Source: Acidimicrobiales bacterium
GTDB taxonomy: Bacteria; Actinomycetota; Acidimicrobiia; Acidimicrobiales; JAJPHD01
Assembly: GCA_039583695.1 (NCBI GenBank)
Contig: JAVKSL010000001.1
Span: forward strand, 10,926-74,925
Direction: 5' to 3'
Length of the DNA: 64,000 nucleotides
Part shown: piece after piece, positions 13,117 through 31,340 of the stretch
Layout of the letters: every line of letters begins with the position of its first letter
Numbering within the stretch: position 1 is the first letter of the stretch
Notes under the pieces: generated by a model
The model's database searches: none
Seen by the model: the letters and a program-made list of their open reading frames with translations, nothing else
What the model was told of the DNA's origin: nothing
Made by a program: the position numbers and the translations under genes

Positions 13117-13223
13117 CTTAGGGTCCGCTGCGCAACTACTCGCGCGGCCGCTTCACATTCGGCCTTGGTGTTGCTACATGTTCGGCCTCTGGCCGCACAA
13201 GTAGTTGCTGCGCGGTCCCTAAG
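13117..13223. repeat. 107-nt palindromic element, copy 1 (33-nt arms, 41-nt loop) between convergent clpB and ligase
   Basis: The left arm is CTTAGGGTCCGCTGCGCAACTACTCGCGCGGCC (13117-13149). The right arm is GGCCGCACAAGTAGTTGCTGCGCGGTCCCTAAG (13191-13223). 27/33 positions are complementary. The ligase stop codon starts 2 nt after the right arm. Confidence 0.7.
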
Positions 13224-28421: not shown

Positions 28422-28656
28422 AAGAATCCTCCGTCCTCGTCGTGCCAAGTAGTCCTGCTTCAGCAAAGTTCCGCTGAGCAGAAGCCATCAGCTCCAAGGA
28501 GCAGTTCGGGTCGTGGCCCGCCGGAGCTTCATCCGACACGGGCATGGTAGCAGTCGGGCGCCCATCGCGCGTAGATCGGCGAACAGAGTACCTTTGACCC
28601 CACATGACACGCCCACGCATCTACCGGGAGCGACTCGCTACGCTCGGGGGGACGGG

Positions 28657-30120
28657 GTGAGCAGGCGCCAGGTGCGCCCCACATCGACGAGCAACTTCGG
28701 GGTGGGCGCTCGCGAGGCTCACGACGCCTCTGCTTTCTACGCTCGCTTCAGCCCCAAGGATGTAACCACCGACGAGGAGCTCGCCGAGCCGTTCGAGCTG
28801 GCCCAACCGCTCGTCTGCGGCGACTCGCGGGCTCTCGACCTGCCGGATAGATCCGTGGCCCTGGTGGTCACCTCACCCCCGTACTTCGCCGGCAAGGAGT
28901 ACGAGGAGGCACTGGGCCAAGGAGTTATCCCCGCCACCTACGTCGAGTACCTCACTCTACTGAGCCAGGTCTTCGCCGAGTGCCTGCGGGTCCTCGAGCC
29001 CGGAGGGCGGATCGCGGTCAATGTCGCCAACCTCGGCCGGCGACCGTACCGGTCGCTGTCCGCTGACGTAGTGCGCATCCTCGACGACGATCTGGGCATG
29101 CTGCTTCGCGGCGAGATAATCTGGAAGAAGGCCGACGGTGCAGCTGGGTCCTGTGCCTGGGGCTCGTACCGCTCGCCGGCCAATCCGGTCTTGCGCGACA
29201 TCAGCGAGCGGGTGATCGTCGCCTCCAAGGGGCGCTTTGACCGAGCCGTCGATATCGACGAGCGTCGTGCGCAGGGTCGCCCGCACCTGTCGTCGATCTC
29301 GGCCGACGAGTTCCTGGAGGCCACCCTCGACGTTTGGGACATCCGTCCGGAGTCCGCCAGACGGGTTGGGCACCCCGCTCCCTTCCCGGTCGAGCTGCCA
29401 CAACGACTCATCGAGCTTTACACCTTCAGAGACGACCTGATCCTCGACCCGTTCCTCGGGTCCGGCACGACAGCGGTCGCGGCGGTGCGCACCGGGCGGC
29501 GTTACGTGGGCTACGAGACCGATCCCGCCTACGTGAGCATCGCCCGGCAGCGAGTGGCCAAGGAGCAGATGCTGCTGGCGGCCAAGGTGGCACCGCAGGC
29601 GAGCTTGCCGATCTACCCCTCGCAGTCCCCCGCCACGTCTCGCTTGATTGAGCAGGGTAAGGCAGCGCAGGCGTTGGCCGTCGACATCGTGACCGAGGCC
29701 GGTTTCGAGATGCTCGAAGCCGATCACCGGATCCCAGGTGTCGGGATCCTCGTCAGTCTCGTCGCCCGCGACGCCGACTGCGCCGAATGGTATTTCGACG
29801 TGACCGGGGCCTTCACCTCGACCCGGAGCGGCCTTGTGCGCACCGACGCACTCTGGAAGTGCCTGGGACGAGCAAGCGTCCTCAAGGCTCGTGGCATCCA
29901 ACCGGTTGTGTTGCTCTCGTCCCACCTCCCACCGCAGCGCAGCACGGGAGACCAAGCGCTGCGTAGCGTCGGACCTAGCGGTATCCACGATGTCATGAGC
30001 ATGCTCAACGGCGCCGATCGTCAGCGCCTCGCGACCTACGCCGCTGGCGGCCATCGCAGCCGGCCCCTACCCGGCTTCTGGAGAGCGGCTGACCTCGGCC
30101 CAGCCCGCCCCCAGCCTTAG
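28657..30120 (+). CDS. Solitary beta-class (N4-C / N6-A) DNA methyltransferase with a ~170-aa C-terminal domain of unknown function
   Basis: Motif IV VVTSPPYF precedes motif I ILDPFLGSGTT, which is the beta-class order. Start placed at GTG 28657, which follows GGGGGGA; the tracked ORF begins at 28513. No endonuclease gene is adjacent. Confidence 0.85.
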   Translation: MSRRQVRPTSTSNFGVGAREAHDASAFYARFSPKDVTTDEELAEPFELAQPLVCGDSRALDLPDRSVALVVTSPPYFAGKEYEEALGQGVIPATYVEYLTLLSQVFAECLRVLEPGGRIAVNVANLGRRPYRSLSADVVRILDDDLGMLLRGEIIWKKADGAAGSCAWGSYRSPANPVLRDISERVIVASKGRFDRAVDIDERRAQGRPHLSSISADEFLEATLDVWDIRPESARRVGHPAPFPVELPQRLIELYTFRDDLILDPFLGSGTTAVAAVRTGRRYVGYETDPAYVSIARQRVAKEQMLLAAKVAPQASLPIYPSQSPATSRLIEQGKAAQALAVDIVTEAGFEMLEADHRIPGVGILVSLVARDADCAEWYFDVTGAFTSTRSGLVRTDALWKCLGRASVLKARGIQPVVLLSSHLPPQRSTGDQALRSVGPSGIHDVMSMLNGADRQRLATYAAGGHRSRPLPGFWRAADLGPARPQP

Positions 30121-30222
30121 GGCCTGGCAGAGAACAACCTGGGCGGCGGGCACAGCTATAGCCCTGATGAGGACCGCATTGAGCAGCGTCGCCGCCCAGG
30201 TTGTTCTCGTACAGGCCCTTAG
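30116..30222. repeat. 107-nt palindromic element, copy 2 (33-nt arms, 41-nt loop) between the convergent methyltransferase and hemD-regulator genes
   Basis: The left arm is CTTAGGGCCTGGCAGAGAACAACCTGGGCGGCG (30116-30148). The right arm is CGCCGCCCAGGTTGTTCTCGTACAGGCCCTTAG (30190-30222). 29/33 positions are complementary. Both flanking stop codons (TAG 30118-30120; TAA complement 30219-30221) lie in the arm tips. Confidence 0.8.
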
Positions 30223-31340
30223 CGAGGCTGCTGGTCGTCCAGGCAGAACCGGTAGCCCCGACCGGAGACGGCCTGCAACCCGCCACCTGCGGGACCAAGC
30301 CGGCGCCGGAGGCGGCTAACGGCTACCTCGAGGAGGTGGGGATCGGTGTTGGCGCATCCCCAGACCCCGGCGAGCAAGACCTCCCGGCCTACAACCGCGC
30401 CTGGCTTGCGGGTCAGCATGCCCAGGATCGTCCGCTCCTTCGGCGTCAGCTGCTCGACGGCACCGTCGAACTCTATCGCCCCGCCTTGGACGACCATCTC
30501 GTGGCCGGAGAGCCGGTAGGAGCGCCGGCTCTGGCTCAAGTGGTCGCCGAGAGCGCGCACGAGCAACCCCAGCCGGCCGAGCGGGGGTGTCAGCGGGTCC
30601 TCGATGCCCTCGGCCCGTGCCCCTCCGGCGCAGACCGGCCCCACGCAGGCGGCCAGCACGGAGCCACCATTGAATGCATCCCGGAGCTGTGCCGCCTCGT
30701 GCTGGGCCATCGCGAACAGATTGTGCACCGCCGGAGCGCTGGTGAAGGTGATCGCGTCGAGGCGACCAGCACACGCAGCCTTCACCAGGCGAAGGGCGGG
30801 CTCGGTGTCAGTGGGGAGACGCCACCGGTACACGGGCACGGACACGACCTCGGCTCCGGCATCGCTCAGGACCTTCACCAGCTCCGGGCTCTCCATGCCG
30901 TACTCCTGCACCGCCACCCGTCGATCCCGGAGTGGCTCAGCCAGGAGGATCTCGACCAGCGCGTCCATCCGCTCGGTCGGGGAGCTCTGCCACACGCCGA
31001 TACCCCCGATATGCAGGGCGGCGGCGGACTTGGGCCCGCGAGCAACGGTACGGGCCTGCCCGAGCGCAGCGACCAGCTGGGCACCGAGGCCCCACGTCGT
31101 CGCAGTGTCCAACCACGCCCGTACCCCGATTCCGGTCGTGGCGACCAGGTAGTCCGGGGGCGCCTCGATGATCGCCAGCGTCGCACGGCGCAGGTTCTCG
31201 TCCGAGGCCAGGTAAGAAGTGGTGATGCTGGCGCCGTGAACGATCGAGGCCCCCCGGCGTGACAGCAACTCGGCCTGCTCCTCCCAACGACGGTCGGCGG
31301 TGATCCCGATCACGAAGCCGTCGAGCGGACGCAGCGACAT
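30219..31340 (-). CDS. Uroporphyrinogen-III synthase (HemD) domain fused to an OmpR/PhoB-type winged-helix DNA-binding domain
   Basis: An N-terminal HemD-like two-lobe domain. C-terminal ...VEQLTPKERTILGMLTRKPGAVVGREVLLAGVWG...EVAVSRLRRRLG...VSGRGYRF Trans_reg_C signature. Confidence 0.85.
   Translation of the reverse strand: MSLRPLDGFVIGITADRRWEEQAELLSRRGASIVHGASITTSYLASDENLRRATLAIIEAPPDYLVATTGIGVRAWLDTATTWGLGAQLVAALGQARTVARGPKSAAALHIGGIGVWQSSPTERMDALVEILLAEPLRDRRVAVQEYGMESPELVKVLSDAGAEVVSVPVYRWRLPTDTEPALRLVKAACAGRLDAITFTSAPAVHNLFAMAQHEAAQLRDAFNGGSVLAACVGPVCAGGARAEGIEDPLTPPLGRLGLLVRALGDHLSQSRRSYRLSGHEMVVQGGAIEFDGAVEQLTPKERTILGMLTRKPGAVVGREVLLAGVWGCANTDPHLLEVAVSRLRRRLGPAGGGLQAVSGRGYRFCLDDQQPR

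What the first reader, a model, noticed from the sequence alone, without database searches (positions are those of the whole stretch)
30116..30222. 107-nt palindromic element whose arm tips contain the stop codons of both convergent genes
The arms are 33 nt with 29/33 complementary positions (CTTAGGGCCTGGCAGAGAACAACCTGGGCGGCG / CGCCGCCCAGGTTGTTCTCGTACAGGCCCTTAG), and the loop is 41 nt. The element exactly fills the gap between the methyltransferase (+) and the hemD-regulator (-). The methyltransferase TAG (30118-30120) and the regulator TAA (complement of 30219-30221) sit inside the outermost 5 nt of the arms (CTTAG / CTAAG-type ends). This is much longer than an ordinary terminator stem. It could be a bidirectional terminator, a REP/MITE-like element that supplies stop codons, or a structured 3'-UTR RNA.
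Basis: seen in the sequence. Interest (0 to 1): 0.6.

Follow-up and report, generated by a model that had tools for sequence, protein, structure and literature searches.

The report
Small mobile palindrome on two stop codons
The 107-base palindrome is one copy of a 100-base non-coding jumping element (a MITE, apparently derived from ISAzo13-type insertion sequences) that inserts at TTA/TAA and duplicates those three bases, which is why both neighbouring genes' stop codons sit in its tips; it is real but ordinary selfish DNA.

Summary
In detail: 33-nt arms with 29/33 complementary positions, a 41-nt loop, and both stop codons in the tips.

It is not a locus-specific signal. The same 100-bp sequence occurs about 21 times full-length, plus fragments, in this 3.2-Mb, 68% GC Acidimicrobiales MAG. 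Mean identity to the consensus is 97%. Each copy is flanked by a 3-bp direct repeat that is either TTA/TTA or TAA/TAA. That is a target-site duplication (TSD), so the element is a MITE.

A sister family with the same geometry lies at window 13118-13222. A diverged family occurs in a congeneric genome.

The element ends (GGGCCTG...) match the ends of ISAzo13-family insertion sequences of the same order at 19-21 of 28 bases. IS5 ends match at only 4-12 of 26. ISAzo13 elements are flanked by TTA/TAA, and three fragments of one lie in this genome.

Here the element landed on TTAG, where the two convergent stop codons (TAG on +, TAA on -) overlapped. Removing it in silico changes neither protein.

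Six of 21 copies sit exactly on a TAA stop, against about 8.5% expected. This is a modest excess that survival bias can explain.

This scan has already found the same kind of element on other DNA.

The parts
30117..30119 (.). Left target-site duplication, TTA. Its TA plus the first G of the element forms the methyltransferase stop TAG (30118-30120).
   Evidence: The 3-bp flanks are identical within a copy (TTA/TTA in 9 copies, TAA/TAA in 5) in 14 of 21 family-A copies.
30120..30148 (.). Left terminal inverted repeat, GGGCCTGGCAGAGAACAACCTGGGCGGCG.
   Evidence: It matches the right ends (IRR) of ISAzo13-family insertion sequences at 21/28.
30149..30189 (.). 41-nt central region (the loop). It is family-specific and non-coding, and is the most variable part among copies.
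   Evidence: It is unrelated to the loop of the congeneric family A'. No Rfam family reached threshold.
30190..30218 (.). Right terminal inverted repeat, CGCCGCCCAGGTTGTTCTCGTACAGGCCC.
   Evidence: It matches the IRR of the intact ISAzo13-family insertion sequence of congener G001 at 20/28.
30219..30221 (.). Right target-site duplication, TTA. On the minus strand it is the TAA stop of the regulator gene.
28672..30120 (+). N6/N4 DNA methyltransferase gene. It is 482 aa from the start shared with homologues; the longest ORF starts at 28513.
   Evidence: Pfam N6_N4_Mtase, E = 1e-39. Homologues are 82-83% identical and 484-489 aa long. Most close homologues end ...GPAR*; this gene runs three codons further (PQP) to the TAG.
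30219..31340 (-). HemD (uroporphyrinogen-III synthase) plus OmpR-type winged-helix regulator gene, 373 aa.
   Evidence: Pfam HEM4 and Trans_reg_C. The orthologue in congener G002 is 75% identical.
13118..13222 (.). Copy of the sister MITE family B (TTA|GGGTCCGCTGCGCAACTACT...AGTAGTTGCTGCGCGGTCCC|TAA). It has the same 99-100 bp size and the same arm/loop geometry.
   Evidence: pair I1. There are five copies in the genome. Its right end matches an ISAzo13 IRR at 21/28.

Best explanation
The palindrome is one copy of a 100-bp non-autonomous transposon (a MITE, here called family A). It has 29-nt terminal inverted repeats around a 41-nt non-coding core.

It is, or recently was, moved in trans by a DDE transposase of the ISAzo13 family. 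That transposase binds the GGG(C/T)C... ends, cuts the element out, and inserts it at a TWA trinucleotide (TTA or TAA). Repair of the staggered cuts duplicates the three bases.

In this 68% GC genome TWA sites are rare. A sizeable share of the harmless ones are TAA stop codons, so surviving copies often abut stop codons.

At this locus the target was the TTA of a TTAG where the stops of two convergent genes overlapped (TAG on +, TAA on -). After insertion each gene keeps its stop at one tip of the element, and no amino acid changes.

Shown:
- the copy number;
- the terminal repeats and the co-varying 3-bp flanks;
- absence of the element at orthologous sites in relatives;
- similarity of the ends to ISAzo13 insertion sequences, and TWA flanks on those sequences;
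- ISAzo13 fragments in this genome.

Inferred:
- which transposase actually moved the element;
- whether it is still mobile;
- any effect of the hairpin on transcription.
For: Copy number and age:
- The own genome holds about 21 full-length copies at 89-100% identity, plus about 6 fragments.
- The consensus is 100 nt, mean identity to it is 97.2%, and three copies are identical to it.

Target-site duplication:
- Flanking triplets are TTA/TTA in 9 copies, TAA/TAA in 5 and TTA/TAA in 1; 6 are degenerate.
- The middle base co-varies between the two sides of a copy, so the triplet is duplicated target, not part of the element.

Genomic context:
- No copy lies inside a called gene. Nine sit between convergent genes, 13 between tandem genes and 2 between divergent genes.
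- The orthologous convergent spacer of copy C50:8682 lacks the element in G002-G005. The C6:27219 site lacks it in G001.

Parent family:
- Pfam PF07592 (DDE_Tnp_ISAZ013) hits three fragments in the own genome; the best has E = 4.8e-100.
- The ends of those fragments are TAA|GGGCTGACGCACAAATAACTT and ...CAAGTAGTTTTGCGGAGGGCCC|TAA.
- 18 of 201 genomes of the order carry the family, including an intact 402-aa copy in congener G001.
- Where both ends were readable, 9-10 of 12 insertion sequences have identical TTA or TAA on both sides.
- MITE ends match these insertion-sequence ends at 19-21 of 28 positions. Shuffles give a mean of about 13, with P <= 0.001.
- The literature states that ISAzo13 and its eukaryotic relative Zator make 3-bp TSDs (PMC10045372).

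This locus:
- The reconstructed empty site ...CAGCC TTA GCGAGG... keeps both stops.
Against: - No intact ISAzo13 transposase gene is assembled in this genome. Only three truncated fragments are present, so current mobility is unproven.
- End similarity to known ISAzo13 elements is 68-75%, not near-identity. The true parent was not found, and scans of genome and metagenome collections with the end pattern gave only chance hits inside coding sequences.
- The 'empty sites' are in other species with diverged spacers. They show absence of the element but not a base-exact pre-insertion sequence.
- Two full insertion sequences (L107, L109) and one family-A copy have TAA on one side and TTA on the other.
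Confidence: 0.85

Rival explanations
1. The element is a MITE of the IS5 / PIF-Harbinger lineage (IS427/IS1031/ISL2-type), which also duplicates TNA/TWA triplets.
For: - IS5_3-type (NF033580) insertion sequences occur in 18 of 201 genomes of the order.
- At least two of them (L044, L045) are flanked by TTA/TTA and start GAGG/GGGG.
- This was my working idea until.
Against: - No IS5-type or Harbinger-type transposase was found in the own genome: PF13340 and PF13359 gave no hit, and NF033580 and NF033581 gave only sub-threshold hits to IS1634/IS1182-like genes.
- MITE ends match the IS5-type ends at only 4-12 of 26 positions, against 19-21 of 28 for ISAzo13 ends.
Confidence: 0.07
2. The hairpin is primarily a host-selected RNA or DNA signal: a bidirectional terminator, insulator or structured 3'-UTR between convergent genes. 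Its repetition would reflect functional recruitment.
For: - The fold is very stable on both strands.
- Gene 3' ends are over-represented: 9 convergent contexts against 2 divergent.
- At this locus the element is the only spacer between two convergent genes.
Against: - There is no U-tract and no terminator-like call, and no Rfam family matches.
- Thirteen copies sit in tandem contexts or upstream of genes.
- At C50 the element sits next to what looks like an intact native GC-rich hairpin, and relatives have their own short hairpins in the same spacer instead of the element.
- Between families the arms are conserved while the loop is replaced, as expected for transposase-binding ends.
- The TSD and the similarity of the ends to insertion sequences explain the origin without invoking a function.
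Confidence: 0.05
3. The element is a REP/BIME-type element moved by a RAYT, or a palindrome-associated element of an IS200/IS605 Y1 transposase.
For: Three Y1_Tnp (PF01797) genes exist in the genome, and the element is an intergenic palindrome.
Against: - Y1-transposase elements make no target-site duplication and have no terminal inverted repeats. Here the 3-bp flanks co-vary.
- No family A or B copy lies on the contigs that carry Y1 genes.
- The element is 100 bp long, whereas REP units are about 20-40 nt (from the literature, not tested here).
Confidence: 0.02

Closest known systems
ISAzo13-family insertion sequences (Pfam PF07592 DDE_Tnp_ISAZ013; eukaryotic counterpart Zator)
   Same: - 3-bp target duplication (PMC10045372). 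In this order it is specifically TTA/TAA.
- Ends begin GGG(C/T)C and carry an AAC(T/A)AC..TG block.
- Identity to the MITE ends is 68-75%.
- Fragments are present in the same genome, and an intact copy is present in a congener.
   Different: - The element has no transposase gene and is 100 bp long, against about 1.26 kb.
- Its two arms are near-perfect copies of each other, and both look like the right end (IRR). The insertion sequences' own two ends are only loosely alike.
- The exact parent was not found.
Classical bacterial MITEs such as Correia/NEMIS of Neisseria and RUP of Streptococcus pneumoniae (review PMC10969869)
   Same: - Small, non-coding and intergenic.
- Terminal inverted repeats that fold into a long hairpin.
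- Fixed short A/T-rich target duplication.
- Dozens of copies, moved in trans.
   Different: - Those elements duplicate TA and are linked to IS630-type or unknown transposases (from my own knowledge, not tested here).
- This element duplicates TWA and matches ISAzo13 ends.
- The host lineage is different (Acidimicrobiia).
Plant Tourist MITEs / PIF-Harbinger, and bacterial IS5-family (IS1031/IS427-group) derivatives
   Same: 3-bp TWA/TNA duplication, so the same tendency to sit on TAA stops.
   Different: The transposase family was tested and not supported here.
Intrinsic (Rho-independent) terminators and SPRITE-like terminator repeats
   Same: A GC-rich hairpin directly after stop codons, symmetric for both convergent genes.
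   Different: - The stem is about 30 bp and the loop 41 nt, against typically 5-15 bp stems with short loops.
- There is no U-tract.
- The element is repeated, with a TSD.

Membership tests
MITE (miniature inverted-repeat transposable element) | Small (under about 600 bp), with no coding capacity | tested here: met
   The consensus is 100 nt. The element is too short to encode a transposase.
MITE (miniature inverted-repeat transposable element) | Terminal inverted repeats | tested here: met
   29-nt arms, conserved across copies.
MITE (miniature inverted-repeat transposable element) | Target-site duplication of fixed length | tested here: met
   3-bp TWA. 14 of 21 copies have identical flanks, and TTA or TAA co-varies between the two sides.
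MITE (miniature inverted-repeat transposable element) | Multiple dispersed copies of high identity | tested here: met
   About 21 full copies plus fragments on 15 or more contigs; 97% mean identity to the consensus.
MITE (miniature inverted-repeat transposable element) | Presence/absence at orthologous sites (mobility) | tested here: inconclusive
   The element is absent at two orthologous loci in related species, but the spacers are diverged. Two other assemblies of the same population carry the copy at this locus. No within-population polymorphism was seen.
ISAzo13-derived element | 3-bp target duplication | tested here: met
   for the MITE, for full insertion sequences in the order, and PMC10045372 for the family.
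ISAzo13-derived element | Ends homologous to those of an ISAzo13-family insertion sequence | tested here: met
   19-21 of 28 identical to insertion-sequence ends, P <= 0.001 by shuffling. The match is not near-identical, so the actual parent is unknown.
ISAzo13-derived element | A cognate transposase available in the host | tested here: inconclusive
   Only three truncated PF07592 fragments are in the 96.7%-complete draft. An intact copy is in congener G001.
IS5 / PIF-Harbinger-derived MITE | Ends homologous to an IS5-type insertion sequence, and an IS5-type transposase in the host | tested here: not met
   no transposase; ends match at 4-12 of 26.
Intrinsic terminator | Short GC-rich hairpin followed by a U-tract | tested here: not met
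   The scan found none in 29800-30500. The tails after the stem are CCCTTAGCGAGG and CCCTAAGGCTGG.
Intrinsic terminator | Transcript 3' ends map to the hairpin | not testable with these tools
REP/BIME (RAYT-mobilised) | No TSD; 20-40 nt palindromes; association with a RAYT gene | tested here: not met
   A TSD is present. The element is 100 bp long. No copy lies on the contigs that carry Y1_Tnp genes.
Any Rfam RNA family (including hammerhead, because of the CUGAUGAG in the loop) | Covariance-model score at or above the gathering threshold | tested here: not met
   The best hit was a generic miRNA-hairpin model at 33.6 bits, against a gathering score of 79. There was no ribozyme hit.

The most novel reading that the evidence does not exclude
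The ISAzo13-type transposase may actively prefer TTAG/CTAA, the tetranucleotide in which a stop codon can be read on both strands. These MITEs would then home to stop codons, and especially to overlapping stops of convergent genes, as a 'safe haven'. At zero-spacer junctions such as this one, the host may then use the inserted hairpin as its only bidirectional transcription barrier.

The hints are weak:
- 6 of 21 copies lie exactly on TAA stops, against about 8.5% expected (P about 0.007 with my rough gene calls; weaker with fuller calls).
- Two copies lie on double stops.
- G follows TTA in 10 of 17 targets.
Probability: 0.15. Interest if true: 0.5.

Novelty: new member of a known kind. Interest (0 to 1): 0.25.

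Why it matters
Mainly for annotation.
- These 100-bp palindromes break MAG assemblies. In another sample, contigs end exactly at the element.
- They can be mistaken for terminators or small RNAs.
- They explain why stop codons sit inside 'arms'.

I found no paper describing MITEs derived from ISAzo13-family elements, or any MITE in Acidimicrobiia, in the searchable library. The family is therefore a small addition to the catalogue of prokaryotic MITEs. It also gives a handle on a poorly studied transposase family whose eukaryotic relative is Zator.

It does not reveal a new mechanism.

Tried and rejected
- Hammerhead or other known RNA. The loop contains CUGAUGAG, but the Rfam scan at permissive E-values gave only sub-threshold miRNA-hairpin hits.
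- IS5/Harbinger parent. This was my first reading and is rejected: no such transposase is in the genome, and the ends are unrelated.
- IS630 parent (TA target). A 2-bp TA duplication does not fit copies flanked by TAA|GGG, and PF13358 gave only a sub-threshold hit.
- IS1182-like element on C71 as parent. Its ends, GCAGGCTGTAGCGAAACCC, are unrelated.
- Parent search by end pattern in 185,579 species genomes and in JGI metagenomes. Only chance hits inside coding sequences were found.
- Exact empty site at this locus.
  - The G002 orthologue of the regulator has a different neighbour.
  - Close methyltransferase homologues are followed by two co-directional genes that are absent here.
  - Two other assemblies of the same population already carry the element.
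- Within-population polymorphism via flanking proteins. One look-up found nothing; the other found a contig that ends at the element.

Full report
**Observation**

The sequence at 30116-30222 is as described. The repeat finder reports arms 30116-30148 and 30190-30222, 33 nt each, 88% complementary, with 41 nt between them (pair I2).

The + strand ORF is an N6/N4 DNA methyltransferase (Pfam E = 1e-39). It stops with TAG at 30118-30120. The - strand ORF carries HemD plus an OmpR-type winged helix. It stops with TAA, the complement of 30219-30221.

As RNA, 141 nt around the element fold to -83.9 kcal/mol on the + strand and -88.0 kcal/mol on the - strand. Both have z about -6.6, and none of 200 shuffles folds as well. 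So the palindrome is real and far beyond chance.

**It is a repeated element**

A search of the window's own genome found the same sequence on many contigs. The genome is 3.24 Mb in 203 contigs, 96.7% complete and 67.7% GC. There are about 21 full-length copies at 89-100% identity and about six truncated ones.

The consensus is exactly 100 nt. Mean identity to it is 97.2%, and three copies equal the consensus.

A genome-wide scan for TWA-GGG...CCC-TWA palindromes found only this family (A) and one sister family (B). Family B begins GGGTCCGCTGCGCAACTACT, has five copies, and has the same 99-100 bp size and arm/loop geometry. One B copy lies in the window at 13118-13222.

By the names of close methyltransferase homologues, the organism is an uncultured Acidimicrobiales bacterium.

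**Ends and target duplication**

Aligned with their flanks, all copies start GGGCCTGG and end CAGGCCC. The three bases outside are distributed as follows:

| Flanks | Copies |
|---|---|
| TTA on both sides | 9 |
| TAA on both sides | 5 |
| TTA one side, TAA the other | 1 |
| Degenerate | 6 |

The middle base varies between copies but agrees within a copy. The triplet is therefore duplicated target DNA and not part of the element.

A 2-bp TA duplication does not fit the copies flanked by TAA|GGG. Bases further out are not repeated.

This also explains one of the four arm 'mismatches'.

**Why the stop codons are in the tips**

TTA on one strand is TAA on the other. Removing the element and one TTA gives ...CCC CAG CCT TAG CGA GGC... 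On the + strand this still reads P-Q-P-stop. On the - strand it still reads ...Q-P-R-stop.

So the element landed in a TTAG where the two convergent stop codons overlapped by two bases. It changed neither protein.

Most close methyltransferase homologues end ...GPAR* (a few differ slightly). This gene runs three codons further, so it is not truncated.

**Genome-wide context**

With a rough codon-usage gene caller (about 3,100 genes, 83% coding), no copy lies within a called gene. Nine lie between convergent genes, 13 between tandem genes and 2 between divergent genes.

Six of 21 family-A copies have a TSD that is exactly the TAA stop of a neighbouring gene. A second copy (C13:4226) also has two convergent stops at its tips.

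The genome has only 8,014 TWA sites. Of these, 2,496 are non-coding and 233 are TAA stops, so about 8.5% of harmless targets are stops. Six of 21 gives P about 0.007. The P value would be weaker with fuller gene calls.

G follows TTA in 10 of 17 intact targets.

I read this as a modest excess that rare targets plus purifying selection can explain. It is not evidence of a purpose-built junction signal.

**Which transposase**

My first idea was the IS5/Harbinger lineage, which also makes TWA duplications. Against it:
- The genome has no such transposase.
- IS5-type elements of the same order do carry TTA duplications, but their ends match the MITE ends at only 4-12 of 26 positions.

That prompted a direct test.

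Pfam PF07592 (DDE_Tnp_ISAZ013) hits three places in the own genome; the best has E = 4.8e-100. All three are truncated fragments, but two of them retain ends:
- TAA|GGGCTGACGCACAAATAACTT, at C19:187;
- ...CAAGTAGTTTTGCGGAGGGCCC|TAA, at C153:2728.

Across 201 genomes of the order, 18 carry the family, including an intact 402-aa copy in the congener G001.

The full elements are about 1.26 kb and start GGG(T/C)C. In 9-10 of the 12 where both ends could be read, they are flanked by identical TTA or TAA.

The MITE ends match these insertion-sequence ends at 19-21 of 28 positions. Composition-preserving shuffles give a mean of about 13, with P <= 0.001. Examples:
- family A left arm against G182 IRR: 21/28;
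- family A right arm against G001 IRR: 20/28;
- family B right arm against G114 IRR: 21/28.

Both arms of each MITE mostly resemble the right end (IRR) of the insertion sequences.

The literature states that ISAzo13 and its eukaryotic relative Zator generate 3-bp duplications (PMC10045372; the pairing is also in PMC5718144).

**Relatives and mobility**

Congener G002 carries a related family (A', 77% identity). Its arms are conserved, with the same change on both arms (GAGAAC to GAAAAC). Its loop is unrelated. That is the pattern expected for transposase-binding ends.

I joined the flanks of eight copies and searched five relatives:
- The convergent spacer orthologous to copy C50:8682 lacks the element in G002-G005. 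Each of those spacers has its own short GC-rich hairpin.
- In G000 the element sits next to what looks like a native hairpin at that locus.
- The C6:27219 site lacks the element in G001.

These spacers are diverged, so they show absence rather than a base-exact empty site.

Two other assemblies of the same population carry the element at the locus studied here.

**Function**

No Rfam family reaches threshold, and there is no hammerhead hit despite the CUGAUGAG in the loop. There is no U-tract, terminator-like or promoter-like site.

At this locus the hairpin is the only spacer between the convergent genes, so an incidental barrier effect is possible.

Y1 transposase genes exist in the genome. 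However, no copy lies on the contigs that carry them, and the TSD argues against a REP- or IS200-type mechanism.

**Verdict**

This is an ordinary MITE, most likely ISAzo13-derived (confidence about 0.85). Its TWA target duplication explains the stop codons in its tips.

I found no paper on ISAzo13-derived MITEs or on MITEs in Acidimicrobiia. It is therefore a new member of a known kind. This scan has already met the same phenomenon on other DNA.

Noticed in passing
window 13118-13222: Sister MITE family B lies between convergent genes. It has the same 99-100 bp geometry and five copies in the genome. This copy has TTA on the left and TAA on the right, which is not a direct repeat.
   Followed up: partly
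G000 C1:79140-79347 (about 4.2 kb beyond the window's right end): A family-A copy and a family-B copy abut and share one TTA/TAA triplet. One element therefore inserted into the target duplication of the other.
   Followed up: no
G000 C19:187-1323, C134:65-1072, C153:2728-2925: Three truncated fragments of one ISAzo13-family insertion sequence. Together they cover the left end plus N-terminus, the middle, and the C-terminus plus right end. No intact copy is assembled; one may be hidden in assembly gaps.
   Followed up: partly
window 28672-30120: In 82-83% identical relatives the methyltransferase is followed, 10 nt downstream, by two co-directional genes (108 aa and 329 aa). These are absent here. 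The sequence diverges immediately after the conserved ...GPAR codons, 8 nt before the target TTA. This suggests an old rearrangement at this junction.
   Followed up: partly
G000 C92:3274-6204: Two family-A copies in inverted orientation bracket about 2.7 kb that holds three or four small genes. The arrangement looks like a composite transposon.
   Followed up: no
G000 C19:36851-36950 and C74:12584-12683: A TTG 18 nt inside the element's arm is in frame with the adjacent gene in both copies. Gene callers may therefore extend the N-terminus into the MITE.
   Followed up: no
G000 C32:13353-13456: A family-A copy carries an insertion of about 31 nt inside its right arm, with a repeated CGTAC at the junctions.
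   Followed up: no
G000 C71 about 1071-2839 (L037 748-2516): An IS1182-like element, about 1.77 kb, encodes a 521-aa transposase and has ends GCAGGCTGTAGCGAAACCC. It is unrelated to the MITEs.
   Followed up: partly
L139 (SRR25649119 contig) and L089: Contigs of another sample end exactly at or just inside the MITE. This shows that these repeats fragment short-read assemblies of this population.
   Followed up: no
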